Virus record (IMG/VR): IMGVR_UViG_2778261009_000010
Coordinates: 1 to 11,825 of that record
Origin: a virus
Lineage: Duplodnaviria; Heunggongvirae; Uroviricota; Caudoviricetes
Reading direction: 5' to 3' (one strand)
Length of the DNA: 11,825 nucleotides
Each line of letters starts with the position of its first letter. Position 1 is the stretch's first letter. The notes beneath the pieces are model-generated. The model saw nothing but the letters and a program-made list of their open reading frames with translations, ran no database searches and was not told where the DNA came from. Both the position numbers and the translations under genes were made by a program. Below, in pieces: positions 1 through 11,825 of the stretch.

Positions 1-72
1 ATCCTGACTTTCCAGAACCATACGGACTGCCCGTTGACGGACTTCGGGGGAAAAACGAGTATTTTTAGTCAT
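1..72 (-). CDS. IS3-family transposase OrfA, N-terminal 24 codons only (5' partial, runs off the window)
   Basis: ATG is the complement of 70-72; translation MTKNTRFSPEVRQRAVRMVLESQD; preceded by GAGG-type RBS. The six-frame track missed it because it is truncated by the window edge. Confidence 0.7.
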   Translation of the reverse strand, partial: MTKNTRFSPEVRQRAVRMVLESQD

Positions 73-126
73 CCTGTTTACCTCTTTCTCAGGAAGTTTA
101 GTCTCCAGGATTCCCGGGGCGGTTCA
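1..126 (-). mobile_element. Left end of an IS3-family insertion sequence (IS629/IS1203-like), partial; the element continues beyond the window start
   Basis: Minus-strand sequence from position 126 reads TGAACCGCCCCGGGAATCCTGGAGACTAAAC..., i.e. begins with the 5'-TG typical of IS3-family terminal repeats, followed by an RBS (AAAGAGG) and an ORF starting MTKNTRFSPEVRQRAVRMVLESQ, which I recognise as the N-terminus of IS629-type OrfA. The ren reading frame ends abruptly at this boundary. Confidence 0.7.
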
Positions 127-312
127 GGTAGCAAATCGGTAATACACCGTTCGCCAGACCTTACCTTCGATAACCAGAAGACCTGCCCGTGCCATTTTAG
201 CCGCGGCCTGATTTATGCTGGTTACTGTTGCGCCTGTTAGCGCGGCAACGTCCGGCGCACAGAAGCTATTATGCGTCCCCAGGTAATGAATAATTGCCTC
301 TTTGCCCGTCAT
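124..312 (-). CDS. ren: Ren (lambda Rex-endurance protein), C-terminally truncated by the IS insertion: 62 aa retained of about 96; likely a pseudogene
   Basis: Translation MTGKEAIIHYLGTHNSFCAPDVAALTGATVTSINQAAAKMARAGLLVIEGKVWRTVYYRFAT matches the N-terminal two thirds of lambda Ren as I recall it. Its stop codon TGA (124-126) is formed by the first bases of the IS terminal repeat. Its ATG overlaps the P stop (ATGA), as in lambda. Confidence 0.75.
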   Translation of the reverse strand: MTGKEAIIHYLGTHNSFCAPDVAALTGATVTSINQAAAKMARAGLLVIEGKVWRTVYYRFAT

Positions 313-1010
313 ACACTTGCTCCTTTCAGTCCGAACTTAGCTTTGATTTCTGCGATCTTCGCCAGAGCCTGTGCACGATTTAGAGGTCTACCGCCCATGA
401 CAGGAAGTTGTTTTACTGGTTCAGGGATCGCCTCACCACGGTTAATTCTCGCAGTCATATGGACAAGCTCATCTGCGGCCTTACGGCGTAATTCCGCATC
501 AGTAAGCGCATTGGCCCGCATGTTCTGATACAGGTTGGTAACCAGCCAGTAGTGCGCGTTTGATTTCCACGGATAAGACTCCGCATCCGGATACAGGCCT
601 CGCTTCCGGCAATACTCGTAAACCATATCAACCAGCTCGCTGACGTTTGGCAGTCCGGCGATAACGGATGCTTCTTCCCGACACCATGCAACAAACTGCC
701 CGGGTGATGGCAGAAATGGTCGATTCTGCCGACGGGCTACGCGCATTCCTGCGTTAACCTGTTCCATTGTGGTGATCCCGTTTTCCCGGAAAGCCAGCAC
801 CCACTGGCGGCGGATTTCGTTCAGTTCGTTCTGGTCCCGGTTAGCCAGGCTCGCCGGGAAAGTTGCCAGTAACTGGCTGAACACACCATTGATGATCTGC
901 GCTACCTGCTGTACCTGCGGCTTTTCGTCGTACTGTTCCAGCATGTTGTTGGCGATCCGGCGCATCTGCTCACGGTCAAAGTTAACCATCTGTGCGGCGA
1001 TGTTTTTCAT
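309..1010 (-). CDS. P: Replication protein P (DnaB helicase loader), lambda type
   Basis: 233-aa translation (MKNIAAQMVNFDREQMRRIANNM...KFGLKGASV) is recognisably lambda P over its whole length; sits immediately downstream of O with overlapping stop/start. Confidence 0.95.
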   Translation of the reverse strand: MKNIAAQMVNFDREQMRRIANNMLEQYDEKPQVQQVAQIINGVFSQLLATFPASLANRDQNELNEIRRQWVLAFRENGITTMEQVNAGMRVARRQNRPFLPSPGQFVAWCREEASVIAGLPNVSELVDMVYEYCRKRGLYPDAESYPWKSNAHYWLVTNLYQNMRANALTDAELRRKAADELVHMTARINRGEAIPEPVKQLPVMGGRPLNRAQALAKIAEIKAKFGLKGASV

Positions 1011-1906
1011 AAATCCACCCCGTAAATCCAGTCAGTGTTTGTCAGGTCGAGTTTTGATTTTCCGGCTGTCACGCCAGCCTGTTGCTTGTTACGGTTGATT
1101 TCGAGTTGGGTCCACTTGTCGCGGAGTTTGGCCGGACTTAGCACGTTACCGGACCAGAAGTTGTCCTGGCATGCCCAGCGGAACAGCACGCACATGTCGC
1201 GGTGGTTACGTCCGTCACGTTCACGCATCAGGCGGATATCGTTAGCCCACCCAGCAAAATTCGGTTTTCTGGCTGATGGTGCGATAATCTTCACCATGTC
1301 AAACATCCACTCTGCGGCGGTCAGGTCTTCTGCTGTCCCCCACTTGCTGCCGCTCTGAATTGCAGCATCCGGTTTAACCACAGAAAGATCGTTTTCTGGC
1401 TGGTCAGAGGATTTGCCAGAATTCTCGGACGAATAATCTTTTCTTTTTTCTTTTGTAATAGTGTCTTTTGTGTCCCCCTGTTTTGAGGGATAGCAATCCC
1501 CCAATTTGAGGGATGTTTTATCCCTCGTTTTAGGGGATTTTCCCTCGTTTTGAGGGATACACCATTCTGAGATGTTTTTATTTGGTCCAAACATGCCGCC
1601 TTGCTGCTTGATAATATTCATTCTGACGAGTTCTAACTTGGCTTCATTGCACCGTTTGACGGGTAACTTTGTAATCTCGCTAAGTTGAGAATCGGTGATT
1701 CTGTCCATTGGTTTATTCCACCCATAGGTTTTACGCAGAATGGCAAGCAGCACTTTAAACTGTCGCTTGGTCAGATCTGCGCCCGAATAAGCCTCAAGCA
1801 GCATATTTGATAGTCTGGCGTAACCATCATCGAGATCTGCCACATTACGCTCCTGTCCGGCAAAGTTACCTCTGCCGAAGTTGAGTATTTTTGCTGTATT
1901 TGTCAT
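1007..1906 (-). CDS. O: Replication initiator protein O, lambda type
   Basis: 299-aa translation (MTNTAKILNFGRGNFAGQERNVADLDDGYARL...TDWIYGVDL) is recognisably lambda O; the coding sequence contains the ori iterons. Confidence 0.95.
   Translation of the reverse strand: MTNTAKILNFGRGNFAGQERNVADLDDGYARLSNMLLEAYSGADLTKRQFKVLLAILRKTYGWNKPMDRITDSQLSEITKLPVKRCNEAKLELVRMNIIKQQGGMFGPNKNISEWCIPQNEGKSPKTRDKTSLKLGDCYPSKQGDTKDTITKEKRKDYSSENSGKSSDQPENDLSVVKPDAAIQSGSKWGTAEDLTAAEWMFDMVKIIAPSARKPNFAGWANDIRLMRERDGRNHRDMCVLFRWACQDNFWSGNVLSPAKLRDKWTQLEINRNKQQAGVTAGKSKLDLTNTDWIYGVDL
1473..1558. repeat. ori-lambda iterons: four 19-bp O-binding repeats, flanked at 1428-1471 by the AT-rich unwinding region
   Basis: Four copies of a TCCCTC-n7-GAGGGA palindrome: 1473-1491 tccccctgttttgagggat, 1496-1514 atcccccaatttgagggat, 1520-1538 atccctcgttttaggggat, 1540-1558 ttccctcgttttgagggat. 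Adjacent T-rich stretch ttcttttttcttttgtaatagtgtcttttg lies downstream in the O reading direction, as in lambda. Confidence 0.9.
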
Positions 1907-1909
1907 AAT
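1881..1909 (+). promoter_or_regulatory. pO-like promoter for the oop antisense RNA
   Basis: -35 TTGAGT (1881-1886), 17-bp spacer, -10 CATAAT (1904-1909), reading away from O into the 3' end of cII. Confidence 0.5.
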
Positions 1910-1915
1910 GACTCC

Positions 1916-1992
1916 TGTGGATTGATCCAGTAGTTCCCTCAGAATTGCATATCAATTTGCTTAAAATCCTCGGTGGCAGCCGGGGATTTTTT
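1916..1992 (+). ncRNA. oop: oop-like antisense RNA (about 77 nt), antisense to the 3' end of the cII-like gene
   Basis: Starts about 7 nt after the pO -10 and ends at an intrinsic terminator: stem tcctcgg (1967-1973), loop tggcag, stem ccgggga (1980-1986, one G-U pair), then TTTTTT (1987-1992). Position, length and orientation match lambda oop. Confidence 0.55.
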
Positions 1993-2235
1993 CTTTGTGA
2001 TTTCATCAAGCGCATACTTAAAAGCCCTGCTAATCGGACTGATGTCTGATGCCATTCCGAAAGCACACAGGACCGAAGCAATAAACCGCCAGTCCGTTCT
2101 GCTTATCTTCGATTCATGACAGCCAATCATCTTTGCCAGACCGCGCTGGGTAATAGTTGACAGATTGATAAGTAAATCTGTTTCTGCGCGATCAACGTCA
2201 CGCTGTGATAGTTTGCTGTAACTTGTTCTTTCCAT
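1939..2235 (-). CDS. cII: CII-like transcriptional activator (lysogeny establishment), non-lambda allele
   Basis: 98 aa between cro and O; HTH-like segment LAKMIGCHESKISRTDWR; C-terminus KKKSPAATEDFKQIDMQF resembles lambda CII C-terminus (NKKRPAATERSEQIQMEF). Confidence 0.8.
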   Translation of the reverse strand: MERTSYSKLSQRDVDRAETDLLINLSTITQRGLAKMIGCHESKISRTDWRFIASVLCAFGMASDISPISRAFKYALDEITKKKSPAATEDFKQIDMQF

Positions 2236-2273
2236 TTCTTAAGATTTCCAATAGTGAATAGTTAGTTGAAAGG

Positions 2274-2291
2274 TATGCGTGGAAACGCATA
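2274..2291 (-). terminator. Hairpin between nutR and cII, possible tR1-like element
   Basis: Inverted repeat tatgcgt/acgcata with 4-nt loop; only a short U-stretch follows on the minus strand, so if functional it is probably weak or Rho-assisted. Confidence 0.25.
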
Positions 2292-2320
2292 TGGCCTTAG
2301 TTGGTCAGATATCTTGGGAC

Positions 2321-2367
2321 TCGCTTTTCAGCGACGTAGGACGAATGTCCGTTGTTACAAAGAGCGG
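2321..2367 (-). promoter_or_regulatory. nutR candidate (boxA plus two stem-loops) downstream of cro
   Basis: Minus strand reads cGCTCTTTgtAACAACGgacattcgtcCTACGTcGCTGAAAAGCga: a boxA-like GCTCTTT, then a short hairpin (ggac/gtcc), then a 5-bp stem with GAAA loop. Near-duplicate of the element upstream of N on the plus strand. Confidence 0.55.
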
Positions 2368-2373
2368 GGTTAC

Positions 2374-2601
2374 TTATGCTGCCAGAAGGTTCTTTTTGCT
2401 TATTTCAAGCAATTCGCTTGCTTGATATTTGCCACCAGAAATCTCTTCGATTTTTGAGGCGTATTTCGTTTTCCCAAAAAACTCAGTCTTAGGGAGGAAG
2501 CCGTTTTTGAGCCACTTATAGACAGCCCTTTCGCTAACTCCACAAGCCTTCGCAACTTCAGGGATGCCGACACCTTTAATCGGCTCATCAAGATTTTGCA
2601 T
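2374..2601 (-). CDS. cro: Cro-like HTH repressor, non-lambda allele
   Basis: 75 aa, first gene transcribed divergently from the cI-like repressor; HTH segment VAKACGVSERAVYKWLKNG. Confidence 0.7.
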   Translation of the reverse strand: MQNLDEPIKGVGIPEVAKACGVSERAVYKWLKNGFLPKTEFFGKTKYASKIEEISGGKYQASELLEISKKNLLAA

Positions 2602-2680
2602 AGGAATATCCCTTTTTCGTACTTTTAGTACGCATTATGGTTGAACTGAAAGTTTTTGCAAGTGCTTTAGTATCGTACTC
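2602..2680. promoter_or_regulatory. OR region: divergent pR / pRM promoters with operator-like palindromes
   Basis: Minus-strand pR candidate: -35 TTGCAA (2656-2661), 16-bp spacer, -10 CATAAT (complement of 2634-2639). Palindrome CGTACT-ttt-AGTACG (2618-2632) overlaps the predicted pR start; second palindrome AGTA-tcg-TACT (2669-2679) lies just upstream of the cI ATG. The cI ATG at 2681 has no Shine-Dalgarno, consistent with a leaderless pRM transcript as in lambda. Confidence 0.6.
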
Positions 2681-3391
2681 ATGGTTCAGAATGAAAAAGT
2701 GCGCAAAGAATTCGCCCAGCGGCTAGCGCAAGCCTGTAAAGAAGCTGGTCTTGATGAACATGGTAGGGGTATGGCCATAGCCCGTGCCCTTTCTCTTTCG
2801 TCCAAAGGCGTTAGCAAATGGTTTAATGCTGAGTCTTTACCGCGTCAGGAAAAAATGAATGCGCTTGCGAAATTTCTAAACGTTGATGTTGTTTGGCTTC
2901 AGCACGGCACTTCGTTAAATGGAGCGAATGATGAAGATAATACTCTTTCATTTGTTGGCAAATTAAAAAAAGGGTTAGTGCGCGTGGTTGGTGAGGCAAT
3001 TCTTGGTGTTGATGGTGCCATCGAGATGACCGAAGAGCGCGATGGGTGGCTCAAGATTTATAGTGATGATCCAGATGCCTTTGGTCTTCGTGTGAAAGGA
3101 GACAGCATGTGGCCCAGAATAAAATCAGGAGAATATGTACTCATTGAGCCTAACACCAAAGTATTCCCGGGGGATGAGGTGTTTGTCAGAACCGTTGAAG
3201 GACACAACATGATCAAGATTCTTGGCTATGACAGAGATGGAGAATACCAATTTACAAGCATCAACCAGGACCACAGGCCAATAACGTTACCTTATCATCA
3301 AGTAGCAAAGGTGGAGTATGTGGCTGGTATTCTGAAGCAATCTCGTCATCTGGATGACATCGAGGCAAGGGAGTGGCTGAAAAGTTTGTGA
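2681..3391 (+). CDS. cI: CI-like prophage repressor (N-terminal HTH, C-terminal S24/LexA-type autopeptidase domain), non-lambda immunity
   Basis: 236 aa; divergent from cro; C-terminal domain carries GDSMWPRIKSGEYVLIEP (Ser nucleophile motif) and a downstream MIKIL lysine, typical of LexA/CI family. Confidence 0.9.
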   Translation: MVQNEKVRKEFAQRLAQACKEAGLDEHGRGMAIARALSLSSKGVSKWFNAESLPRQEKMNALAKFLNVDVVWLQHGTSLNGANDEDNTLSFVGKLKKGLVRVVGEAILGVDGAIEMTEERDGWLKIYSDDPDAFGLRVKGDSMWPRIKSGEYVLIEPNTKVFPGDEVFVRTVEGHNMIKILGYDRDGEYQFTSINQDHRPITLPYHQVAKVEYVAGILKQSRHLDDIEAREWLKSL

Positions 3392-3468
3392 CTTCAAGTA
3401 CGCGACAAGCCCCGTCCTTCAGGGCGTGGTGGATGTCAAAATAACTTTAAATAACACACCACCAACAT

Positions 3469-3497
3469 TTAACACATTGAATTAAAAAACCTACAAT
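3469..3497 (+). promoter_or_regulatory. Candidate internal promoter upstream of the cargo operon
   Basis: -35 TTAACA (3469-3474), 17-bp spacer, -10 TACAAT (3492-3497) in the 110-bp AT-rich gap after cI. Pattern match only. Confidence 0.3.
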
Positions 3498-3502
3498 ATT
3501 TG

Positions 3503-3835
3503 ATGAGAGGCGTTATGGAACCGGTCAAAATTAAACCATCTGTGGATTATATTGAAACCTATGCGGACTTCGCTAGTTTTGCTCCACTACCGGGAGCGGA
3601 AAAAAATCTCATTTGTATACATTTTATCGCAAACAAGTCAATACCTGCGGTACTATCCCAAAATGATATACCAGATCAACCAGGTAGAGCGAATATGCAG
3701 ATAGGCTCTGTAAATGAACTCAATCAGCAATGCACTGTGATAATGCCAATGGCACAACTAAAGGCTCTTCAGGAGAATATAGTTCTTCTTTTCGAACAAT
3801 TAGAGGCACAAAACTCTAATGGAGCGAAGTCGTAA
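3503..3835 (+). CDS. Hypothetical small protein, first gene of the cargo operon in the rexA position (start ambiguous: ATG 3503 or ATG 3515)
   Basis: ORF in the same orientation as cI; GAGAGG (3505-3510) precedes ATG 3515; stop overlaps the next start (TAATG at 3833-3837). No resemblance to lambda RexA that I can recognise. Confidence 0.6.
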   Translation: MRGVMEPVKIKPSVDYIETYADFASFAPLPGAEKNLICIHFIANKSIPAVLSQNDIPDQPGRANMQIGSVNELNQQCTVIMPMAQLKALQENIVLLFEQLEAQNSNGAKS

Positions 3836-4518
3836 TGCAACAACCGGAAGAAGTAGGTGATTTAACTATTACTTACAAAACATCAAGTATTGTTAAACCA
3901 CTGCAAGTTTCCCTGAATAACGTTAATACTCGCGATTTCATGATGTTCATGGAAACAGCAAAAGGTAATCTGTTTTCTACGCCTATTTCCTCTTATTCAC
4001 CAAAAAACATGGTGGATGATGCGACCAATTCCCAGCTAACTGCTACAATCGTAGATAAAGGAGGGGTTGCCGATTGTAAAGGACAATCTAATGTTATCCC
4101 ACCGTACGAGGAAACTCCTATACAGGGAACCGCAATGTCCGATTTGAGCAGAAACGAAATACAGGCACTTCTGAAGGCAAATAAAGCTGAAGTGGATGCA
4201 GTGGCCTCAAAAATGCAGGCTGATATGGCCAAATGGCGTGAACTAATGGCTTCAGATATAAAGGAGATGAAGCATTTAGTTGTTACTCAGCACGAACAAA
4301 TCAACAGTCGTCTGGACATACAATCGAGTAGAATTGAGAGTGCCCTTGACTCCCAATCAAAAAAGATCGATGCAGCTCTTTCTGTTCAAGAGGCAAAGTT
4401 AGAAGGTAAGCTTAGTGATGTTAAGCTTGATATAATCAAATGGGCCCTTGGCTTGCCAGCATTAGCATTTGCTGTATATAAAATCTACGGATTGCTCTCT
4501 GGAGTCTCAACCCCCTAA
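3835..4518 (+). CDS. Hypothetical coiled-coil protein with a single C-terminal transmembrane helix (tail-anchored), second gene of the cargo operon in the rexB position
   Basis: 227 aa; residues about 105-200 are rich in heptad-like charged/hydrophobic pattern (EIQALLKANKAEVDAVASKMQADMAKWRELMASDIKEMK...); C-terminus WALGLPALAFAVYKIYGLL is a 19-residue hydrophobic segment; followed directly by a strong intrinsic terminator. Confidence 0.7.
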   Translation: MQQPEEVGDLTITYKTSSIVKPLQVSLNNVNTRDFMMFMETAKGNLFSTPISSYSPKNMVDDATNSQLTATIVDKGGVADCKGQSNVIPPYEETPIQGTAMSDLSRNEIQALLKANKAEVDAVASKMQADMAKWRELMASDIKEMKHLVVTQHEQINSRLDIQSSRIESALDSQSKKIDAALSVQEAKLEGKLSDVKLDIIKWALGLPALAFAVYKIYGLLSGVSTP

Positions 4519-4523
4519 TACAC

Positions 4524-4550
4524 ACCCGGCCTCAGTGCCGGGTTTTCTTT
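4524..4550 (+). terminator. Rho-independent terminator ending the cI / cargo operon
   Basis: Stem cccggc (4525-4530), loop ctcagt, stem gccggg (4537-4542), then TTTTCTTT (4543-4550). Confidence 0.7.
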
Positions 4551-4740
4551 GCCCAACGTTCGCCCACCTAAAAACACATAATCGATTGTATTTATTGAAA
4601 AACTGATAGATACAACTTGCTAAACAGTGCAACCCTGATCCCTGCCCCATCACCTTCATCCTCAACATTTACAAAAATAAAATACCTTATATATCAAAAC
4701 CATATCTCGAGGAAACGAATGAACAACAAAATTTCGTACT

Positions 4741-4790
4741 TATGGTTCTTGATTGTATCGAACCAATAGTTCATTATTATCACCATCAGC
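4741..4790 (+). promoter_or_regulatory. Putative OL / pL region
   Basis: TTTCGTACTTATGGTTC (4741-4757) repeats the TTCGTACTT...ATGGTT motif of the OR region. Candidate -35 TTGATT (4758-4763), 17-bp spacer, -10 CATTAT (4781-4786), about 35 nt upstream of the nutL candidate and about 180 nt upstream of N. Inverted repeat TGGTTC(n10)GAACCA (4752-4773) spans the -35. Confidence 0.4.
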
Positions 4791-4823
4791 AGGACGCTGG
4801 AAGCCAAACGGAACAGACTGGCA

Positions 4824-4870
4824 GGCTCTTTAAACAACGTCGAACTCTCGACTACGTGGCTGAAAAGCCA
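4824..4870 (+). promoter_or_regulatory. nutL candidate (boxA plus two stem-loops) upstream of N
   Basis: gGCTCTTTaAACAACGtcgaactctcgaCTACGTgGCTGAAAAGCca: boxA-like GCTCTTT (4825-4832), hairpin gtcga/tcgac (4839-4852), and 5-bp stem with GAAA loop (4857-4870). Matches the minus-strand element at 2321-2367. Confidence 0.55.
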
Positions 4871-4968
4871 GATCACCCAACCACATAAGCTGTGGGATGC
4901 AATGCCGAAGCAACCGTCTCAGGAGGAGCTTCGAGATTGCATCGCCAAAGTTTATTCGGGAGGAATCT

Positions 4969-5241
4969 ATGTCCAGAAAAACAAAATTTAAAGGCACCGC
5001 AGCTTCTCGCCGTAGAGCCCGTCGCGCAAATCTGCAAAGTCAGGAGGCGATCAGCTCCGACAAGCTACACAGACCAACCCCTTCACGAGTGGTCTTGCAA
5101 TGCAAGCGCAAACCAGCAATGAGAGCAGAAGTTATAACTCTGACAACGTTGACCAGAAAATATGAAGGTTCAACTTGTCTTCCGAACGTAGCTCTTTACG
5201 CGGCAGGCTACCGGAAATCAAAACAACTGACGGCGAGATGA
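4969..5241 (+). CDS. N: N-like transcription antiterminator (P22 gene 24 / phage 21 N type) with arginine-rich motif
   Basis: RBS GGGAGGAA (4958-4965) then ATG 4969; 90 aa MSRKTKFKGTAASRRRARRANLQ... with N-terminal arginine-rich RNA-binding motif; C-terminus VALYAAGYRKSKQLTAR resembles the P22 gene-24 protein C-terminus as I recall it. The track ORF 4897-5241 is an upstream extension of the same frame. Confidence 0.8.
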   Translation: MSRKTKFKGTAASRRRARRANLQSQEAISSDKLHRPTPSRVVLQCKRKPAMRAEVITLTTLTRKYEGSTCLPNVALYAAGYRKSKQLTAR

Positions 5242-5257
5242 TAAATTAATTTGCTAA

Positions 5258-5839
5258 TTACTTGTTTTTGCCATGCTTATCCTGAGCGATAAGTTCATCC
5301 ATAAGACTGTCTTTCTTCCCAGCAAACCTAATGTAGCACTCATTTCTATAGCGTTCCGGGATAACAAAACGGTCGATTTCAGGATATCCAGTAGCAGAAG
5401 GTACCCGAATAAGAAGCCCTTTTTCGAGCAATGAGATTGCTTCAGGGCTTCCCTTTTCTGTCTTTAGCTGGTTATTAGCGGCTACAGCGAATGCCAAATA
5501 CGCTCTTTCTCCAAGAGTTAACGAATCAAACAAATCTTGCACGTATTTCTCTTCTTTAGATTTGCGCTTCTGAGCAGCGAATATCTCAATTCTTTCAGTC
5601 ACAGCGTGATAAGCGGAATTAACAACGCCGTTAAGCACATAGCTAACGCAAAACAACAGGATGTAATACATCCAGTAATGAGGAAGGATTTCTGGATTAT
5701 GCAGGTTTATCCATTCTTTTACGCTTACAGGCATAACAATAATCAATATGATCAGGATGATTAGCATATGAATCAACTGTTTAAGTGTCATTCCTTGCAG
5801 GAAAAAATGCATTAGTTCCTGCCACCATGAGTTGTTCAT
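5258..5839 (-). CDS. sieB: SieB-like superinfection exclusion membrane protein
   Basis: 193 aa, convergent with N, same position and orientation as lambda sieB relative to N/ea10; two N-terminal hydrophobic helices (LIHMLIILIILIIVMPVSV; HYWMYYILLFCVSYVLNGVV). Confidence 0.6.
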   Translation of the reverse strand: MNNSWWQELMHFFLQGMTLKQLIHMLIILIILIIVMPVSVKEWINLHNPEILPHYWMYYILLFCVSYVLNGVVNSAYHAVTERIEIFAAQKRKSKEEKYVQDLFDSLTLGERAYLAFAVAANNQLKTEKGSPEAISLLEKGLLIRVPSATGYPEIDRFVIPERYRNECYIRFAGKKDSLMDELIAQDKHGKNK

Positions 5840-6053
5840 CGGCGTTTCTCTTTTGCTCTCTGTAGGGGTGAATAGAGTTTATCCGATTTCTCGCTGTAGG
5901 GGTACACGAGAACCACCGAGCCTGATGTGGTTAAAAGACAGGCATACTAATAAACACTGCACTGTGTATTCATTCCAACGAGTGAATACACTGAGCAATG
6001 TCGCTCGTAACTAAACAGGAGCCGACTTGTTCTGATTATTGGAAATCTTCTTT

Positions 6054-6079
6054 GCCCTCCAATGTGAGGGCGATTTTTT
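6054..6079 (+). terminator. Rho-independent terminator upstream of ea10 (tL2-like position)
   Basis: Stem gccctc (6054-6059), loop caatgt, stem gagggc (6066-6071), then GATTTTTTA. Confidence 0.6.
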
Positions 6080-6099
6080 ATCTGTGAGGATATGAATAG

Positions 6100-6468
6100 A
6101 TGTCAAACATCAAAAAATACATCATTGATTACGACTGGAAAGCATCAATAGAAATTGAAATCGACCATGACGTAATGACAGAGGAAAAACTTCACCAGAT
6201 TAATAATTTCTGGTCAGACTCTGAATACCGACTCAATAAACACGGCTCTGTATTAAATGCTGTATTAATCATGCTGGCGCAACATGCTCTGCTTATAGCA
6301 ATTTCAAGCGACTTAAATGCATATGGTGTTGTGTGTGAGTTCGACTGGAATGATGGAAATGGTCAGGAAGGATGGCCTCCAATGGATGGTAGCGAAGGAA
6401 TAAGAATTACCGATATCGATACATCAGGAATATTTGATTCAGATGATATGACTATCAAAGCCGCCTGA
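6100..6468 (+). CDS. ea10: Ea10-like protein of the lambda pL operon
   Basis: 122 aa; RBS GTGAGGA (6084-6090); size and position upstream of cIII as in lambda. Sequence identity to lambda Ea10 is from memory and not verified. Confidence 0.8.
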   Translation: MSNIKKYIIDYDWKASIEIEIDHDVMTEEKLHQINNFWSDSEYRLNKHGSVLNAVLIMLAQHALLIAISSDLNAYGVVCEFDWNDGNGQEGWPPMDGSEGIRITDIDTSGIFDSDDMTIKAA

Positions 6469-6492
6469 GCGCGGCGTTACCGCATACCAATA

Positions 6493-6518
6493 ACGCTTCA
6501 CTCGAGGCGTTTTTCGTT
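6493..6518 (+). terminator. Terminator-like hairpin between ea10 and cIII
   Basis: Stem acgcttc / gaggcgt (one G-U), loop actc, followed by TTTTCGTT. Confidence 0.35.
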
Positions 6519-6540
6519 ATGTATAAATAAGGAGCACACC

Positions 6541-6705
6541 ATGCAATATGCCATTGCAGGGTGGCCTGTTGCTGGCTGCCCTTCCGAATCTTTACTTGAA
6601 CGAATCACCCGTAAATTACGTGACGGATGGAAACGCCTTATCGACATACTTAATCAGCCAGGAGTCCCAAAAAATGGATCAAACACTTATGGCTATCCAG
6701 ACTAA
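6541..6705 (+). CDS. cIII: CIII (inhibitor of FtsH-mediated CII degradation)
   Basis: Manual translation from ATG 6541 (RBS AAGGAG 6529-6534): [54 protein letters not shown], 54 aa, which I recognise as lambda CIII. Below the 60-aa cutoff of the ORF track. Confidence 0.9.
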   Translation: MQYAIAGWPVAGCPSESLLERITRKLRDGWKRLIDILNQPGVPKNGSNTYGYPD

Positions 6706-6817
6706 ATTCACTATCGCCACTTTTATTGGCGATGAAAAGATGTTTCGTGAGGCCGTCGACGCTTATAAAAAATGGATATTAATACTGAAACTGAGATCAA
6801 GCAAAAGCATTCACTAA
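6674..6817 (+). CDS. kil: Kil (host cell-division inhibitor)
   Basis: 47 aa [47 protein letters not shown], the C-terminal part of track ORF 6548-6817; overlaps the cIII 3' end and the gam 5' end as in lambda. Confidence 0.85.
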
Positions 6818-7188
6818 CCCCCTTTCCTGTTTTCCTAATCAGCCCGGCATTTCGCGGGCGATATTTTCACAGCTATTTCAGGAGTTCAGCCATGAACGCT
6901 TATTACATTCAGGATCGTCTTGAGGCTCAGAGCTGGACGCGTCACTACCAGCAGATCGCCCGTGAAGAGAAAGAGGCAGAACTGGCAGACGACATGGAAA
7001 AAGGTCTGCCCCAGCACCTGTTTGAATCACTCTGCATCGATCATTTACAACGCCACGGGGCCAGCAAAAAAGCCATTACCCGTGCGTTTGATGACGATGT
7101 TGAGTTTCAGGAGCGCATGGCAGAACACATCCGGTACATGGTTGAAACCATTGCTCACCACCAGGTTGATATTGATTCAGAGGTATAA
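6772..7188 (+). CDS. gam: Gam (RecBCD inhibitor)
   Basis: 138 aa [29 protein letters not shown]...[10 protein letters not shown], recognisably lambda Gam. Confidence 0.95.
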
Positions 7189-7193
7189 AACGG

Positions 7194-7979
7194 ATGAGTA
7201 CAGCACTCGCAACGCTGGCTGGGAAGCTGGCTGAACGCGTCGGCATGGATTCTGTCGACCCACAGGAACTGATCACCACTCTTCGCCAGACGGCATTTAA
7301 AGGTGATGCCAGCGATGCGCAGTTCATCGCATTGCTGATCGTCGCCAACCAGTACGGCCTTAATCCGTGGACGAAAGAAATTTACGCCTTCCCTGACAAG
7401 CAGAACGGCATCGTTCCGGTGGTGGGCGTTGATGGCTGGTCCCGTATCATCAATGAAAACCAGCAGTTTGATGGCATGGACTTTGAGCAGGACAATGAAT
7501 CCTGCACATGCCGGATTTACCGCAAGGACCGCAATCATCCGATCTGCGTTACCGAGTGGATGGATGAATGCCGCCGCGAACCATTCAAAACCCGCGAAGG
7601 CAGAGAAATCACGGGGCCGTGGCAGTCGCATCCCAAACGGATGTTACGGCATAAAGCCATGATTCAGTGTGCCCGTCTCGCCTTCGGATTTGCTGGTATC
7701 TATGACAAGGATGAAGCCGAGCGCATTGTCGAAAATACCGCATACACTGCAGAACGTCAGCCGGAACGCGACATCACTCCGGTTAACGATGAAACCATGC
7801 AGGAGATTAACACTCTGCTGATTGCCCTGGATAAAACATGGGATGACGACTTATTGCCGCTCTGTTCCCAGATATTTCGCCGCGACATTCGCGCATCGTC
7901 AGAACTGACACAGGCCGAAGCAGTGAAAGCTCTTGGATTCCTGAAACAGAAAGCCACTGAGCAGAAGGTGGCTGCATGA
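7194..7979 (+). CDS. bet: Bet (Red-beta single-strand annealing recombinase)
   Basis: 261 aa [37 protein letters not shown]..., recognisably lambda Bet. Confidence 0.95.
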
Positions 7980-8656
7980 CACCGGACATTATCCTGCAGC
8001 GTACCGGGATCGACGTGAGAGCTGTCGAACAGGGGGATGATGCGTGGCACAAATTACGGCTCGGCGTCATCACCGCTTCAGAGGTTCACAATGTGATAGC
8101 AAAACCCCGCTCCGGAAAGAAATGGCCTGACATGAAAATGTCCTACTTCCACACCCTGCTTGCCGAGGTTTGCACCGGTGTGGCTCCGGAAGTTAACGCT
8201 AAGGCACTGGCCTGGGGAAAACAGTACGAGAACGACGCCAGAACCCTGTTTGAGTTCACTTCCGGCGTGAATGTTACTGAATCCCCGATCATCTATCGCG
8301 ACGAAAGTATGCGCACCGCCTGCTCTCCCGATGGTTTATGCAGTGACGGCAATGGCCTTGAGCTGAAATGCCCGTTTACCTCCCGGGATTTCATGAAGTT
8401 CCGGCTCGGTGGTTTCGAGGCCATAAAGTCGGCTTACATGGCCCAGGTGCAGTACAGCATGTGGGTGACGCGAAAAGATGCCTGGTACTTTGCCAACTAT
8501 GACCCGCGGATGAAGCGTGAAGGCCTGCATTATGTCGTGGTTGAGCGGGATGAAAAGTACATAGCGAGTTTTGACGAGATGGTGCCGGAGTTCATCGAAA
8601 AAATGGACGAGGCACTGGCTGAAATTGGTTTTGTATTTGGGGAGCAATGGCGATGA
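7976..8656 (+). CDS. exo: Exo (lambda exonuclease, Red-alpha)
   Basis: 226 aa [50 protein letters not shown]..., recognisably lambda Exo; start overlaps bet stop (ATGA). Confidence 0.95.
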
Positions 8657-8811
8657 CGCATCCTCACGATAATATCCGGGTAGGCGCGATCACTTTCGTC
8701 TACTCCGTTACAAAGCGAGGCTGGGTATTTCCCGGCCTTTCTGTTATCCGAAATCCGCTGAAAGCCCAGCGGCTGGCTGAGGAGATAAATAATAAACGGG
8801 AGAGTGTATGA
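8653..8811 (+). CDS. Small hypothetical protein (52 aa), translationally coupled between exo and the 250-aa ORF
   Basis: Manual translation from ATG 8653 (overlapping the exo stop): [52 protein letters not shown]; its stop overlaps the next ATG (ATGA at 8808-8811). Too short for the ORF track. Confidence 0.5.
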
Positions 8812-9560
8812 TTCATTTTCACGGTGGTCCAATAACTCCCGATACCTGTGCGTTGAAAGCCTGGAAAGGCAGACACGCATTCATCAGTTTTGCTAATCCA
8901 GCTCAGATTGATCTGGCTTCCGAAGTCACCCAATCATTTGCTCTTGATAATGGTGCATTCACATTCTGGACAAAAAACAAGGCCGTAGACTGGAATGAAT
9001 ATTACAGATTTGTTGAACGCTGGGGCAATCACCCTCGTTTCTCATTCGCGGTTATCCCGGATGTTATCGGCGGAACCAGTGAAGAGAATGACGCCCTGAT
9101 TGCGGCATGGCCTCACGGTAAATTTATTGGTGCTCCGGTGTGGCACATGAACGAACCAGATGAGCGATTTATTCGTCTGTGCCATGAGTTTCCCCGCGTC
9201 TGCATCGGCTCGATGGGGGAATACGATGCAAAACGACCGAGAGCGTGTCGGGCTAAACTACGCGATCTTATACGTCATGTTGTAGATCAGTACGGCTACC
9301 CAATCACCAAGATTCATGGGTTACGGATGTTAAATAAAGACATTTTTACTCATGTACCGCTTTCGTCTGCAGACAGCACGAACGTCGCAAGAAATATAGG
9401 CATCGACAAATCCTGGGTAGGTTCGCCATATGCTCCCGCAAGTAAAGAAACCCGTACGCAAGTTCTTGTGGAACGCATTGAATCATTCAACAGTGCCAGT
9501 TCACTTAATTACAACGCTGAACGGGACGTCTTTACCCCTCAACTGGCATTCGAAGTGTGA
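8808..9560 (+). CDS. Hypothetical protein (250 aa), accessory gene downstream of exo
   Basis: Long ORF in the operon orientation, start coupled to the preceding small ORF. Not any lambda protein I can recognise. Confidence 0.75.
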   Translation: MIHFHGGPITPDTCALKAWKGRHAFISFANPAQIDLASEVTQSFALDNGAFTFWTKNKAVDWNEYYRFVERWGNHPRFSFAVIPDVIGGTSEENDALIAAWPHGKFIGAPVWHMNEPDERFIRLCHEFPRVCIGSMGEYDAKRPRACRAKLRDLIRHVVDQYGYPITKIHGLRMLNKDIFTHVPLSSADSTNVARNIGIDKSWVGSPYAPASKETRTQVLVERIESFNSASSLNYNAERDVFTPQLAFEV

Positions 9561-9567
9561 GGCCAAT

Positions 9568-9783
9568 ATGACAATAGAACATAATAACGCCCTTCGCAGT
9601 ATTGCCCGTCAGGCTAATTCTGAAATCAAAAAAGCCAGACAGCAGTTTCCGGATAAAAACGTCGATGACATTTGCCGTAGCGTACTGAAGAAGCACCGCG
9701 AAACGGTAACGCTGATGGGATTCACACCGACTCACTTAAGTCTGGCAATCGGCATGTTAAACGGCGTTTTTAAGGAACGGTGA
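9568..9783 (+). CDS. Hypothetical protein (71 aa)
   Basis: ATG 9568 preceded by GAGG (9559-9562), 7 nt after the stop of the 250-aa ORF; MTIEHNNALRSIARQANSEIKKARQQFPDKNVDD... The track ORF 9430-9783 is an upstream extension that overlaps the preceding gene and is unlikely to be the real start. Confidence 0.6.
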   Translation: MTIEHNNALRSIARQANSEIKKARQQFPDKNVDDICRSVLKKHRETVTLMGFTPTHLSLAIGMLNGVFKER

Positions 9784-9805
9784 ACATGAAAAGCAAAATC
9801 ATCAG

Positions 9806-9826
9806 GGAGCTACAGGCTCCTTTTTT
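9806..9826 (+). terminator. Weak terminator-like hairpin
   Basis: Stem ggagc (9806-9810), loop tacag, stem gctcc (9816-9820), then TTTTTT (9821-9826). Short stem. Confidence 0.3.
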
Positions 9827-9881
9827 ATTATTCGCATTCACCCTCAAGCGTATTAACCAACAATTCAGGGATTAATGAAAG

Positions 9882-10103
9882 ATGGCAGACATCATTGATT
9901 CAGCATCAGAAATTGAAGAATTACAGCGCAACACAGCAATAAAAATGCGCCGCCTGAACCACCAGGCTATATCTGCCACTCATTGTTGTGAGTGTGGCGA
10001 TCCGATAGATGAACGAAGACGCCTGGCCGTTCAGGGTTGTCGGACTTGTGCAAGTTGCCAGGAGGATCTGGAACTTATCAGTAAACAGAGAGGTTCGAAG
10101 TGA
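9882..10103 (+). CDS. TraR/DksA-family C4 zinc-finger protein (lambda Orf73-like RNA polymerase-binding factor)
   Basis: 73 aa with CxxC-x17-CxxC (CCECGDPIDERRRLAVQGCRTCASC), the DksA/TraR zinc-finger signature, and the size of TraR-type proteins. Confidence 0.8.
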   Translation: MADIIDSASEIEELQRNTAIKMRRLNHQAISATHCCECGDPIDERRRLAVQGCRTCASCQEDLELISKQRGSK

Positions 10104-10255
10104 GCGAAATTAACTAGAAGTCAAAGATAAAATCATCGCTGAGCAGGAGAAAATCGCTAACGGAGAAAAGACAGTAAGTCAGTATATGAAAACCGCATGA
10201 TATCATCAGATAAAAATCGATCGTAAAGCGAAATATTCATACCAGAATAAACGAG

Positions 10256-10279
10256 TCGAGGTAAATTATATTACCTCGA
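10256..10279 (-). terminator. Hairpin downstream of the minus-strand membrane-protein gene, possible terminator
   Basis: Perfect 9-bp inverted repeat tcgaggtaa / ttacctcga with 6-nt loop, 35-60 nt past the stop of the 10314-10916 gene; the following minus-strand sequence is only moderately U-rich. Confidence 0.35.
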
Positions 10280-10313
10280 TAAATTAACTAAAACTTGCCC
10301 GCTATATACTATC

Positions 10314-10916
10314 TCATTCAGTATCATCACGCGTGGTCTGTGCATATGTCACTACCGCACCTAATGTATTAATTTTCTTTTCAACATAGATAATATTATC
10401 GTACTCATAATTGCCATACGGATAGCAAATGCGAATATCCTCATGTAGATCGGGGTCATCCACCTCAGCTCCAGAACAACTTTTTGAACTACCGGAAGTA
10501 TACCGATACGGTGCAACATAAGACGATGTCTCTCCAGGCAAAAAATAAGTTAGTGTTGTAAGGGGTATAATCAGAAAAAATCCAGAAAATATGCATATCC
10601 CTGCATAAACCTTAAGGTATGCTGACAGACTCTTCCAGCCGCTTTGTTTTACTATCCCCTTCTTAACCCAAAACAGAGATAACAGAAAAGCTATTCCCAT
10701 GCTAAACAGAATGTAATAGTGGGATATACTCTGATTAAGAAACGTGACCCTGTAGATATCTGCCCGCCACCAGAAGAAAAGGAAAATAAAGATCAGCCCT
10801 GAAACTGTCATGCAAATCAAATAAGGATACGAATCTTTTTTCATGTTTAGCGCCCATAAAATTTTTCCTGCCCCGGACAAATTTACCATCCATTTTTTGC
10901 GCAGAAAATAGCTCAT
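10314..10916 (-). CDS. Hypothetical integral membrane protein (3-4 predicted TM helices), low-GC moron on the opposite strand; start uncertain (ATG 10916 or internal ATG 10844)
   Basis: 200 aa with hydrophobic segments YLICMTVSGLIFIFLFFWW, YYILFSMGIAFLLSLFWV, ICIFSGFFLIIPLTTLTYFL and a roughly 60-aa hydrophilic C-terminal domain; coding sequence visibly more AT-rich than the lambda-type genes; opposite strand to the surrounding operon. Confidence 0.7.
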   Translation of the reverse strand: MSYFLRKKWMVNLSGAGKILWALNMKKDSYPYLICMTVSGLIFIFLFFWWRADIYRVTFLNQSISHYYILFSMGIAFLLSLFWVKKGIVKQSGWKSLSAYLKVYAGICIFSGFFLIIPLTTLTYFLPGETSSYVAPYRYTSGSSKSCSGAEVDDPDLHEDIRICYPYGNYEYDNIIYVEKKINTLGAVVTYAQTTRDDTE

Positions 10917-11624: not shown

Positions 11625-11825
11625 ATGCAACACGAACTACAACCTGATTCACTGGTTGATTTGAAATTCATCATGGCTGATACTGGCTTCGGTAAGACCT
11701 TCATCTATGACCGGATTAAGTCCGGCGACCTGCCTAAAGCCAAAGTTATCCACGGACGAGCAAGATGGTTATATCGTGACCATTGTGAATTCAAAAATAA
11801 GCTCTTAAGCCGCGCCAATGGGTAA
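11625..11825 (+). CDS. AlpA-family DNA-binding protein, probable excisionase (Xis) preceding an integrase beyond the window
   Basis: 66 aa; MerR-like winged HTH pattern typical of AlpA/Xis proteins (LVDLKFIMADTGFGKTFIYDRIKSGDLPKAKVIHGRARWLYRDHCEFKNKL); GGAGA RBS upstream; located where xis sits in lambdoid phages (distal end of the pL operon). Confidence 0.75.
   Translation: MQHELQPDSLVDLKFIMADTGFGKTFIYDRIKSGDLPKAKVIHGRARWLYRDHCEFKNKLLSRANG

What the first reader, a model, noticed from the sequence alone, without database searches (positions are those of the whole stretch)
1..312. IS629-like insertion truncating ren and separating the replication module from the rest of the prophage
The ren frame stops at residue 62 exactly where an IS3-family terminal repeat begins (TGAACC...), with the IS OrfA N-terminus (MTKNTRFSPEVRQRAVRMVLESQ) reading leftward out of the window. 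The nin region, Q and late genes, which lie beyond ren in lambdoid phages, are therefore separated from O-P by the IS, and possibly deleted or rearranged. Ren protects lambda from Rex exclusion; here the prophage has lost intact ren and carries different cargo in the rex slot. IS629 is typical of E. coli O157 / Shigella genomes, which hints at the host background.
Basis: partly seen in the sequence, partly recalled or inferred. Interest (0 to 1): 0.45.

Follow-up and report, generated by a model that had tools for sequence, protein, structure and literature searches.

The report
IS629 insertion cutting prophage gene ren
A common E. coli jumping gene (IS629) has landed in the small, dispensable phage gene ren of a lambda-like prophage; the window starts there only because the draft assembly broke inside this repeated element, so the finding is real but ordinary.

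Summary
Window 1-126 (minus strand) is the left end of an IS629/IS1203-type IS3-family element: a 25-bp terminal repeat and the first 24 codons of orfA. It matches annotated IS629 copies at 99-100%. It abuts ren after codon 62, and the first three IS bases (TGA) supply the stop codon; intact Ren has 96 aa. The window is identical to the end of draft contig NMAY01000026.1, which stops 126 nt into the IS. The "separation" from nin/Q/late genes is therefore an assembly break at a repeat, not evidence of deletion. The far junction could not be found in any collection. In complete E. coli genomes, IS629-type elements sit at 11 inspected positions in ren, the ren-ninB spacer, ninB and ninE, in both orientations. 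Nine are simple insertions with nin genes beyond; two (G5, FORC 064) border deletions or rearrangements. IS629-type ends occur in 66% of complete E. coli genomes, and the chromosomal flank is 100% identical to E. coli C-like strains, so the O157/Shigella hint fails. The prophage sits at the argW/dsdC site, with torI in the window and the integrase presumably at the unseen end. This is a known kind of event and of low interest.

The parts
1..126 (-). Left end of an IS629/IS1203-type IS3-family insertion sequence (IS positions 1-126 of about 1310). The window and its source contig end here.
   Evidence: 100% match over 1-126 to an IS3-family transposase locus. 99.2% to copies annotated IS629. 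0 mismatches in the first 123 nt against the full 1310-bp CFT073 copy and the 1307-bp ECO_2_R copy. Contig NMAY01000026.1 ends at this base.
102..126 (-). 25-bp left terminal inverted repeat (IRL), TGAACCGCCCCGGGAATCCTGGAGA
   Evidence: In full copies, the IRL and IRR match at 23 of 25 positions. The window sequence is identical to that IRL.
1..72 (-). First 24 codons of IS orfA (MTKNTRFSPEVRQRAVRMVLESQD), preceded by an AGAGG ribosome-binding site
   Evidence: Direct reading. Called as a 24-aa partial gene in L003. Lies under CDSs annotated IS629 OrfA / IS3 family transposase in matching records.
124..312 (-). Truncated ren: 62 native codons (127..312) plus a TGA stop supplied by the IS end (124..126)
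   Evidence: ORF list. Residues 1-62 are identical to 96-aa Ren. PHROG 142 'Ren-like exclusion protein', E = 1.4e-23, covering profile positions 11-72 of 116.
127..129 (.). Predicted target-site copy (GGT on the + strand, equal to ACC, ren codon 62). It would be repeated at the unseen far end if this is a simple insertion.
   Evidence: Inference only. IS629-type copies nearby show 3-4-bp duplications (CGG, GTC, GGCC, GGT, GTAC), and the literature reports 3-4 bp (PMC3271280). The second copy is not in the window.
309..1010 (-). Intact replication gene P. Its stop overlaps the ren start (ATGA). It is the last uninterrupted gene before the IS.
   Evidence: ORF list. Pfam Phage_lambda_P on the called gene. 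99-100% identity to P genes in phages and prophages.
11625..11825 (+). torI (KplE1-type excisionase) at the attR-side end of the prophage. Context that places the integrase beyond the IS.
   Evidence: Annotated torI next to dsdC in records 98-99.3% identical. The source contig continues dsdC-dsdX-dsdA-emrYK-evgAS with no integrase.

Best explanation
An IS629/IS1203-type insertion sequence (IS3 family, about 1.31 kb) transposed into the ren gene of a lambda-like prophage, between codons 62 and 63. It is oriented so that its transposase genes read the same way as O-P-ren, the early-right operon. Shown: the IS terminal TGA now ends the ren frame, leaving a 62-aa product that lacks the last 34 residues; O and P upstream are intact. 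Established for the IS3 family, not tested here: these elements move by copy-out/paste-in, using an OrfAB transposase made by -1 frameshifting, and leave a 3-4-bp duplication. For this copy the predicted duplication is ACC. The window begins inside the IS because the short-read assembly of the source genome could not pass a multi-copy repeat. Inferred, at about 75-80%: the other IS end is followed by the last 34 ren codons, then ninB...Q, lysis, head and tail genes, and intS at argW. That would make it a simple insertion that costs the phage only Ren. From knowledge, Ren is a non-essential protein needed to escape Rex exclusion by lambda lysogens. Also inferred: the insertion persists because ren and the nin region are dispensable.
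For: IS identity and exact junction. Ren truncation compared with 96-aa Ren; PHROG 142. Contig-end origin: the reverse complement of the window is identical (0 mismatches over 10,312 nt) to NMAY01000026.1 positions 1-10312, and that contig stops 126 nt into the IS. Empty-site allele: RM14721 is 100% identical over window 127-700 and has an intact ren, followed by ninB and the nin genes to quuD. Simple-insertion precedent: IS629-type copies at ren +126, +156, +321, +328 and +428 have 3-4-bp duplications and nin genes directly beyond. The opposite-orientation copies in C7, O103:H2 12009 and MLI104K2 also have nin genes beyond. None of the sites seen lies in P. All are in ren or nin, which fits tolerance of insertions in dispensable genes. 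A full-length IS copy has no more terminator-like sites than shuffled sequence: 3 against 1.6 +/- 1.5. IS629 biology (3-4-bp duplication, 62% of copies in prophages, no sequence-specific target): PMC3271280.
Against: Only one IS junction is visible. The far junction, the duplication and the rest of the IS were never seen for this genome. No complete E. coli genome, species-representative genome, metagenome contig or viral contig carries either junction. Two nearby IS629-type copies in complete genomes border deletions or rearrangements: FORC 064 (a truncated IS in ren followed by tail genes, with P also truncated) and G5 (IS in ninB followed by a truncated sitD). In O157:H7 genomes only 21 of 47 IS629 sites had matching duplications (PMC3271280). 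No effect on Q expression, prophage inducibility or Rex sensitivity was tested.
Confidence: 0.78

Rival explanations
1. The IS marks the edge of a deletion or rearrangement. After insertion, an IS-mediated adjacent deletion, or recombination with another IS629 copy, removed or relocated the ren 3' part and some or all of nin/Q/lysis/structural genes. The window would then belong to a prophage remnant.
For: FORC 064: an IS629-type element in ren about 18 bp from this site is itself truncated and is followed directly by tail genes; P is also truncated. G5: an IS in ninB is followed by a truncated sitD and sitCB. Fewer than half of IS629 sites in O157:H7 keep a matching duplication (PMC3271280). 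The source genome must hold other IS629-type copies for the contig to break here, and those are substrates for recombination.
Against: Nine of the 11 inspected comparator sites are simple insertions. The visible IS end is complete to its last base, and the 11.7 kb of prophage in the window has intact O, P, cII, cro, cI, N, gam, bet, exo and torI with no other decay. Nothing in the record itself points to loss.
Confidence: 0.2
2. The junction is an assembly artefact: a chimeric contig end in which reads from an IS copy elsewhere were wrongly appended to an intact ren.
For: The junction lies at the extreme end of a draft contig. No other collection contains it.
Against: The break falls exactly at the first nucleotide of the IS terminal repeat, as a real insertion requires. 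A chimera has no reason to respect that boundary. The same contig is recorded for 2 samples, with one more similar place. The 126-nt overhang into the repeat is about what a k-mer assembler leaves at a true unique/repeat boundary.
Confidence: 0.02

Closest known systems
IS629 and its isoforms IS1203 and IS3411 (IS3 family) of E. coli and Shigella
   Same: The visible 126 nt are 99-100% identical to annotated IS629/IS1203 copies. The 25-bp IRL (TGAACCGCCCCGGGAATCCTGGAGA), the orfA start and the N-terminal sequence are the same. Location in a prophage is typical: 62% of copies in O157:H7 (PMC3271280).
   Different: Nothing differs in kind. orfA codon 24 is GAT (Asp) instead of the usual Gly codon. 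In the searches run here, only one plasmid copy matched these bases exactly (CP025895). The rest of the element is not in the window.
IS629-type insertions in ren of other E. coli prophages (SCU-306 at ren +126; ECO_2_R, ECO_1_S and 2009C-3133 at +156)
   Same: Same gene, same orientation, same kind of element, 30-60 bp away. In each, ren is split and PGAP annotates two partial 'protein ren' pseudogenes.
   Different: The position differs (+186 here), so this is an independent event. In those genomes both junctions, a 3-bp duplication and the downstream nin..Q genes are visible. Here only one junction is.
FORC 064 degraded prophage (IS629-type element in ren bordering a deletion)
   Same: The IS abuts the 5' part of ren within about 18 bp of this site.
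   Different: Opposite orientation, a truncated IS, P also truncated, and tail genes directly adjacent. The window instead has a complete IS end and intact P and O.
Phage lambda ren (Rex-exclusion resistance) and the dispensable nin region
   Same: Same gene position, overlapping the end of P, and 99% nucleotide identity of P-ren to lambda-group phages. Residues 1-62 are identical to the 96-aa Ren of related prophages.
   Different: The last 34 residues are lost. This prophage has no rexAB: two unrelated ORFs follow cI. That Ren counters Rex, and that ren and nin are dispensable, comes from established lambda genetics and was not tested here.

Membership tests
IS629 / IS3 family insertion sequence | Nucleotide identity to reference IS629/IS1203 copies at isoform level (about 95% or more) | tested here: met
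   Over the visible 126 nt: 99.2% to copies annotated 'IS3 family IS629', 100% to an IS3-family transposase locus, and 0 mismatches in 123 nt against the 1310-bp CFT073 copy. ISfinder itself was not available.
IS629 / IS3 family insertion sequence | Imperfect terminal inverted repeats of about 25 bp, beginning 5'-TG and ending CA-3' | tested here: inconclusive
   The IRL is present and complete at window 126..102. The IRR lies outside the window. In full copies with an identical IRL, IRL and IRR match at 23 of 25 positions.
IS629 / IS3 family insertion sequence | Two overlapping ORFs (orfA, orfB) joined by programmed -1 frameshifting into a DDE transposase | not testable with these tools
   Only orfA codons 1-24 are in the window. 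Comparator copies are annotated 'programmed frameshift' with an AL1L pseudoknot, but that is not this copy.
IS629 / IS3 family insertion sequence | 3-4-bp target-site duplication flanking the element | not testable with these tools
   The far junction is absent from the window and its contig. Scans for the predicted junction found nothing in the genome, metagenome or viral collections. Nearby copies show CGG, GTC, GGCC, GGT and GTAC.
Lambda Ren protein | Sequence homology to Ren and a position immediately downstream of, and overlapping, P in the early-right operon | tested here: met
   Residues 1-62 are identical to 96-aa Ren. PHROG 142 'Ren-like exclusion protein', E = 1.4e-23. The ATGA overlap with P is at 309-312. 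Pfam and NCBIfam have no model that hits it.
Lambda Ren protein | Full-length 96-aa product | tested here: not met
   The frame ends after residue 62 at the IS-supplied TGA.

The most novel reading that the evidence does not exclude
The ren-ninB stretch of lambdoid prophages might be a genuine preferred target for IS629-family transposition, rather than just a tolerated site. Counting this window, there are 12 distinct positions within about 0.7 kb, in both orientations. One identical site (+156, duplication GTC) is occupied by two IS isoforms that differ by 4.4%. Two insertions lie inside the terminator-like hairpin between ren and ninB. Such insertions could be a recurrent route to prophage domestication. 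My rough estimate gives about 7-fold enrichment over uniform placement. The reported prophage bias of IS629 could largely account for that, so a special mechanism is not required.
Probability: 0.12. Interest if true: 0.3.

Novelty: already known. Interest (0 to 1): 0.1.

Why it matters
It matters little. IS629-family insertions in prophage genes are a well-documented source of E. coli genome variation. This one disrupts a non-essential phage gene. The practical lesson concerns method: a window that opens with about 126 nt of a multi-copy IS is probably the end of a short-read contig, so what lies beyond it is simply unobserved, not deleted. The exact insertion site could serve as a strain or lineage marker, since it is absent from 5426 complete E. 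coli genomes.

Tried and rejected
1. Exact near-junction searches. Megablast of window 1-700 against 5426 complete E. coli genomes gave no single-piece match. Exact-pattern scans of genome contigs, viral contigs and metagenome contigs gave 0 hits.

2. Predicted far-junction scans (IS right end, 0-6 nt, then ren from codon 63) in genome contigs, metagenome contigs and viral contigs gave 0 hits.

3. Exact-protein lookup of the 62-aa Ren. At first it seemed to show the same truncation in many different prophages (162 blocks). I rejected that reading because those contigs end ...GCTACCA(G). That is native ren breaking at an AGG/AAG (R63/K63) polymorphism, not at an IS. Only the source contig carries the IS.

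4. Finding the far side through a protein lookup. The predicted remnant has no start codon before Met70, which leaves 27 aa and is unlikely to be called as a gene. NinB is too common to trace to one sample. I ran no further search on it.

5. Orientation bias of insertions near ren. The first search suggested one, but a synthetic opposite-orientation query found at least seven more records, so I rejected it.

6. First two window bases as a contig-end error. Rejected: one plasmid IS copy matches all 126 bases.

7. Using the closest IS-free relative of the early region (CREC-2, 99.2%) to infer the missing side. Rejected: it is integrated at a different chromosomal site near torT. QEC11-421 shares the site and the torI end but has a different immunity and replication region.

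8. Family scans of the rex-slot ORFs gave no function.

Full report
1. WHAT IS IN THE SEQUENCE

The window is the early region of a lambda-like prophage, read mostly on the minus strand. The genes run in this order:
- ren (124..312), P (309..1010), O (1007..1906), cII and cro
- a divergent cI (2681..3391), two unknown ORFs, N and sieB
- cIII, kil, gam, bet and exo
- several accessory ORFs, then a 66-aa gene at the right edge

In ren-sense orientation the left end reads ...TAC CGA TTT GCT ACC | TGAACCGCCCCGGGAATCCTGGAGACTAAACTTCCTGAGAAAGAGGTAAACAGG ATG ACT AAA AAT ACT CGT....

The 62-aa ORF is identical over its whole length to residues 1-62 of a 96-aa Ren (L013). It matches PHROG 142, 'Ren-like exclusion protein' (E = 1.4e-23). 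Its stop codon is the TGA that opens the IS terminal repeat.

2. WHICH IS

- Window 1-126 matches Stx-phage copies annotated 'insertion sequence: IS3 family IS629 / IS629 transposase OrfA' at 99.2%.
- It matches an IS3-family transposase locus on an E. coli plasmid at 100% over all 126 nt (E = 1e-58).
- Full-length copies identical to the window over the first 123 nt (CFT073, ECO_2_R) are 1310 and 1307 bp. Their 25-bp terminal repeats match at 23 of 25 positions.
- PGAP annotates these copies with a programmed frameshift and, in one strain, as 'IS3-like element IS1203 family'.
- Rump et al. 2011 (PMC3271280) treat IS1203 and IS3411 as IS629 isoforms. They describe subtypes 4-5% apart, 3-4-bp target duplications, 62% of copies in prophages and no sequence-specific target.

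ISfinder was not available. Calling this element 'IS629-type' rests on these annotated copies.

3. WHY THE WINDOW STARTS INSIDE THE IS

An exact-sequence lookup of the 62-aa Ren returned contig NMAY01000026.1 of assembly GCA_002536795.1. The reverse complement of the window is identical to positions 1-10312 of that contig, with 0 mismatches. A second lookup confirmed the same contig further along.

The contig ends exactly 126 nt into the IS. That is about what a k-mer assembler leaves at a boundary between unique sequence and a repeat. The apparent separation of O-P from nin/Q/late genes is a limit of the assembly and not an observation about the genome.

4. IS THE REST OF THE PROPHAGE STILL BEYOND THE IS?

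This could not be determined directly.
- No complete E. coli genome (5426) contains the junction in one piece.
- Exact scans for the near junction, and for the predicted far junction (IS right end, 0-6 nt, ren from codon 63), found nothing in the species-representative genomes, JGI metagenomes or IMG/VR.
- The far-side ren remnant has no start codon before Met70, which leaves 27 aa, so it offers no protein to look up.

I therefore used comparators to set a base rate. The table lists IS629-type insertions near ren in complete genomes.

| Strain(s) | Orientation relative to the window's IS | Position | Duplication | What lies beyond the IS |
|---|---|---|---|---|
| SCU-306 | same | ren +126 | CGG | rest of ren, ninB and further nin genes |
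| ECO_2_R, ECO_1_S (not inspected; same match profile), 2009C-3133 | same | ren +156 | GTC | rest of ren, nin genes to Q |
| ECO2947 | same | +321, ren-ninB spacer | GGCC | ninB and further nin genes |
| CFT073 | same | +328, ren-ninB spacer | GGT | ninB and further nin genes |
| 24AR0357 | same | +428, in ninB | GTAC | rest of ninB, nin genes |
| C7 (C3 not inspected; similar match) | opposite | just 3' of ren | not determined | hypothetical genes, partial ninB, then a second IS |
| O103:H2 12009 | opposite | in a gene 3' of ren | not determined | ninB and further nin genes |
| MLI104K2 | opposite | in ninE | not determined | nin genes; quuD is cut by a different IS |
| G5 | opposite | in ninB | none seen | truncated sitD, then sitCB (rearranged) |
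| FORC 064 | opposite | ren about +204 | none seen | truncated IS, then tail genes; P also truncated (deleted) |

One further opposite-orientation record, NCTC9699, was not inspected.

So 9 of 11 inspected sites are simple insertions and 2 border deletions or rearrangements. Rump et al. found matching duplications at only 21 of 47 IS629 sites in O157:H7. I put a simple insertion at about 75-80% and an IS-bordered loss at about 20%.

The empty-site allele is in strain RM14721. It is 100% identical over window 127-700 and has an intact ren followed by ninB, the other nin genes and quuD.

5. MECHANISM AND CONSEQUENCES

Shown:
- The insertion point lies between ren codons 62 and 63.
- The IS is co-oriented with the early-right operon.
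- Ren loses its last 34 residues.
- O and P are intact.

Established for the IS3 family, not tested here: copy-out/paste-in transposition by an OrfAB frameshift fusion transposase, leaving a 3-4-bp duplication. For this copy the predicted duplication is ACC (window 127-129, GGT on the + strand).

Inferred:
- ren and the nin region are dispensable for lambda growth (established lambda genetics), so such insertions are tolerated. In line with that, none of the sites seen lies in P, even though about 390 nt of P were part of both queries.
- Early-right transcription would have to cross 1.3 kb of IS to reach Q. A full-length IS copy has no more terminator-like sites than shuffled sequence: 3 against 1.6 +/- 1.5. 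The prophage also encodes an N antiterminator. Polarity on Q is therefore not expected to be absolute, but this is untested.
- Loss of Ren should matter only when this phage infects a cell expressing lambda RexAB.
- Residues 1-59 of Ren hit a MarR-family PHROG (E = 3e-10), and residues 1-57 hit a 57-aa PHROG family (E = 5e-40). The surviving fragment may be a complete small winged-helix-like domain. Whether it keeps any activity is unknown.

6. HOST AND LOCUS

- IS629-type left ends occur in 3606 of 5426 complete E. coli genomes, with a median of 3 copies. The IS therefore says little about the host.
- The source contig continues to the right with torI, dsdC, dsdX, dsdA, emrY, emrK, evgA and evgS, and has no integrase.
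- That 9-kb flank is 100% identical to E. coli C, WG5, RM14721 and others.
- The prophage therefore occupies the argW/dsdC site, known as KplE1 or CPS-53 in K-12 (from my own knowledge).
- In strain QEC11-421 a complete 49-kb lambdoid prophage fills the same site. It shares this torI-proximal end at 99.3%. Its order is argW, intS, tail, head, lysis, Q, nin, ren, P, O, immunity, recombination genes, torI, dsdC.
- By analogy, the integrase of the window's prophage lies beyond the IS, together with the late genes.

7. A TRAP WORTH RECORDING

The 62-aa Ren lookup listed 162 collection blocks, on prophages with many different immunity regions. That looked like a widespread identical truncation. It is not. 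Those contigs end ...GCTACCA or ...GCTACCAG, which is native ren (codon 63 is AGG or AAG). They break at that polymorphism, which is an assembly-graph fork where a genome or sample carries two related prophages. For example, L005 and L007 come from one genome, and their last difference lies 222 nt before the shared end. That this common SNP sits immediately next to the IS insertion point is a coincidence. The exact-length lookup exaggerated its apparent frequency.

8. IS REN-NIN AN IS629 HOT SPOT?

Seventeen records carry an IS629-type end within detection range of ren. They represent about 12 strains, and 11 distinct sites were inspected.

A rough calculation follows, and it is my own inference:
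- There are about 3.2 chromosomal copies per genome (17,531 places over 5426 genomes).
- About 2500 genomes carry this P-ren module.
- Taking a detection span of about 1.4 kb in a genome of about 5 Mb, roughly 2 records are expected under uniform placement, against 17 observed.

The enrichment is about 7-fold. The reported prophage bias (62% of copies in prophages, which I take to be roughly 5-12% of the genome) is of the same order. No special targeting is needed.

Two oddities remain:
- The +156 site carries IS copies that differ by 4.4% in different strains. This could mean independent hits at one site, or conversion between IS copies after insertion.
- Two insertions lie inside the GGCCTGC...GCAGGCC-TTTTTATTT hairpin between ren and ninB.

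9. VERDICT

The feature is real and was correctly described. The element is IS629-type. ren is truncated exactly as stated.

The suggestion of deletion or rearrangement is unsupported by this record but not excluded (about 20%). The host inference is wrong. This is a known kind of event, and I score interest at about 0.1.

Noticed in passing
window 124-312 (-); loci L004-L012, last 60 nt: Exact-protein lookup of the 62-aa Ren returns many contigs (162 blocks) from prophages with different immunity regions that end at the same codon. They end ...GCTACCA(G), which is native ren breaking at an AGG/AAG (R63/K63) polymorphism. These are assembly forks, not IS junctions. The SNP happens to sit next to the IS insertion point.
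   Followed up: yes
L001, L002, L014-L017, L019-L023 (ren-ninB-ninE regions of complete E. coli genomes): IS629-type elements sit at 11 inspected positions across ren, the ren-ninB spacer, ninB and ninE, in both orientations; none was seen in P. The +156 site (duplication GTC) carries IS copies 4.4% divergent in ECO_2_R and 2009C-3133. By a rough estimate, enrichment over uniform placement is about 7-fold, of the same order as the reported prophage bias of IS629.
   Followed up: partly
L015 and L016, about 321-328 nt after the ren start (ren-ninB spacer): The ECO2947 and CFT073 IS copies are inserted in the stem and the loop of the GGCCTGC-TGGTAAT-GCAGGCC-TTTTTATTT hairpin between ren and ninB. 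From memory this corresponds to lambda terminator tR2. The two events are independent, 7 bp apart.
   Followed up: no
window 11625-11825 (+) and source contig beyond (L024 1-9300): The last gene in the window is torI (KplE1-type excisionase), directly followed on the contig by dsdC-dsdX-dsdA-emrYK-evgAS with no integrase. The prophage therefore sits at the argW/dsdC site, with intS expected at the far end beyond the IS, as in the 49-kb prophage of QEC11-421 (L026).
   Followed up: yes
L024 1-9000 (chromosomal flank of the source contig): The flank is 100% identical over 9 kb to E. coli C, WG5, RM14721 and other strains, with dsdC, dsdX and dsdA annotated under the match. The host looks like an ordinary E. 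coli and not O157:H7 or Shigella.
   Followed up: partly
window 3515-3835 (+) and 3835-4518 (+): Two co-oriented ORFs lie directly downstream of cI, in the position of lambda rexAB. One is 106 aa with no family hit. The other is 227 aa, with a coiled-coil region and a hydrophobic stretch near the C-terminus. It hits PHROG 14825 (unknown function, E = 8e-129), Pfam CCDC90-like at 28.1 bits (below the 33.5 cut-off), and nothing credible in PADLOC. Function is unknown. By position this is a candidate exclusion or defence cargo.
   Followed up: partly
window 8808-9560 (+): A 250-aa ORF downstream of exo matches PHROG 887, 'queuine tRNA-ribosyltransferase' (E = 4e-99, profile positions 11-266 of 509), but no Pfam family. 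It may be a DpdA-like transglycosylase of the kind linked to 7-deazaguanine DNA modification; that link is from memory and was not tested.
   Followed up: no
window 10314-10916 (-): A 200-aa hydrophobic, probably membrane protein whose exact sequence occurs on only this one contig in the whole collection. Its C-terminal 88 aa match PHROG 1416 (unknown function). A homologous 603-nt gene occupies the same position in QEC11-421, in a region 99.3% identical.
   Followed up: partly
window 127-312 (-), Ren residues 1-62: The retained Ren fragment hits a MarR-family regulator PHROG (1687, E = 3e-10, residues 1-59) and a 57-aa PHROG family (7054, E = 5e-40). The N-terminal 57-60 residues may therefore form a self-contained winged-helix-like domain that also exists as a stand-alone short protein in phages.
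   Followed up: no
window 1-3: orfA codon 24 reads GAT (Asp), whereas most IS629-type copies have a Gly codon. Most BLAST hits therefore start at base 3 or 4, but plasmid CP025895 matches all 126 bases. The variant is real and not a contig-end error.
   Followed up: yes
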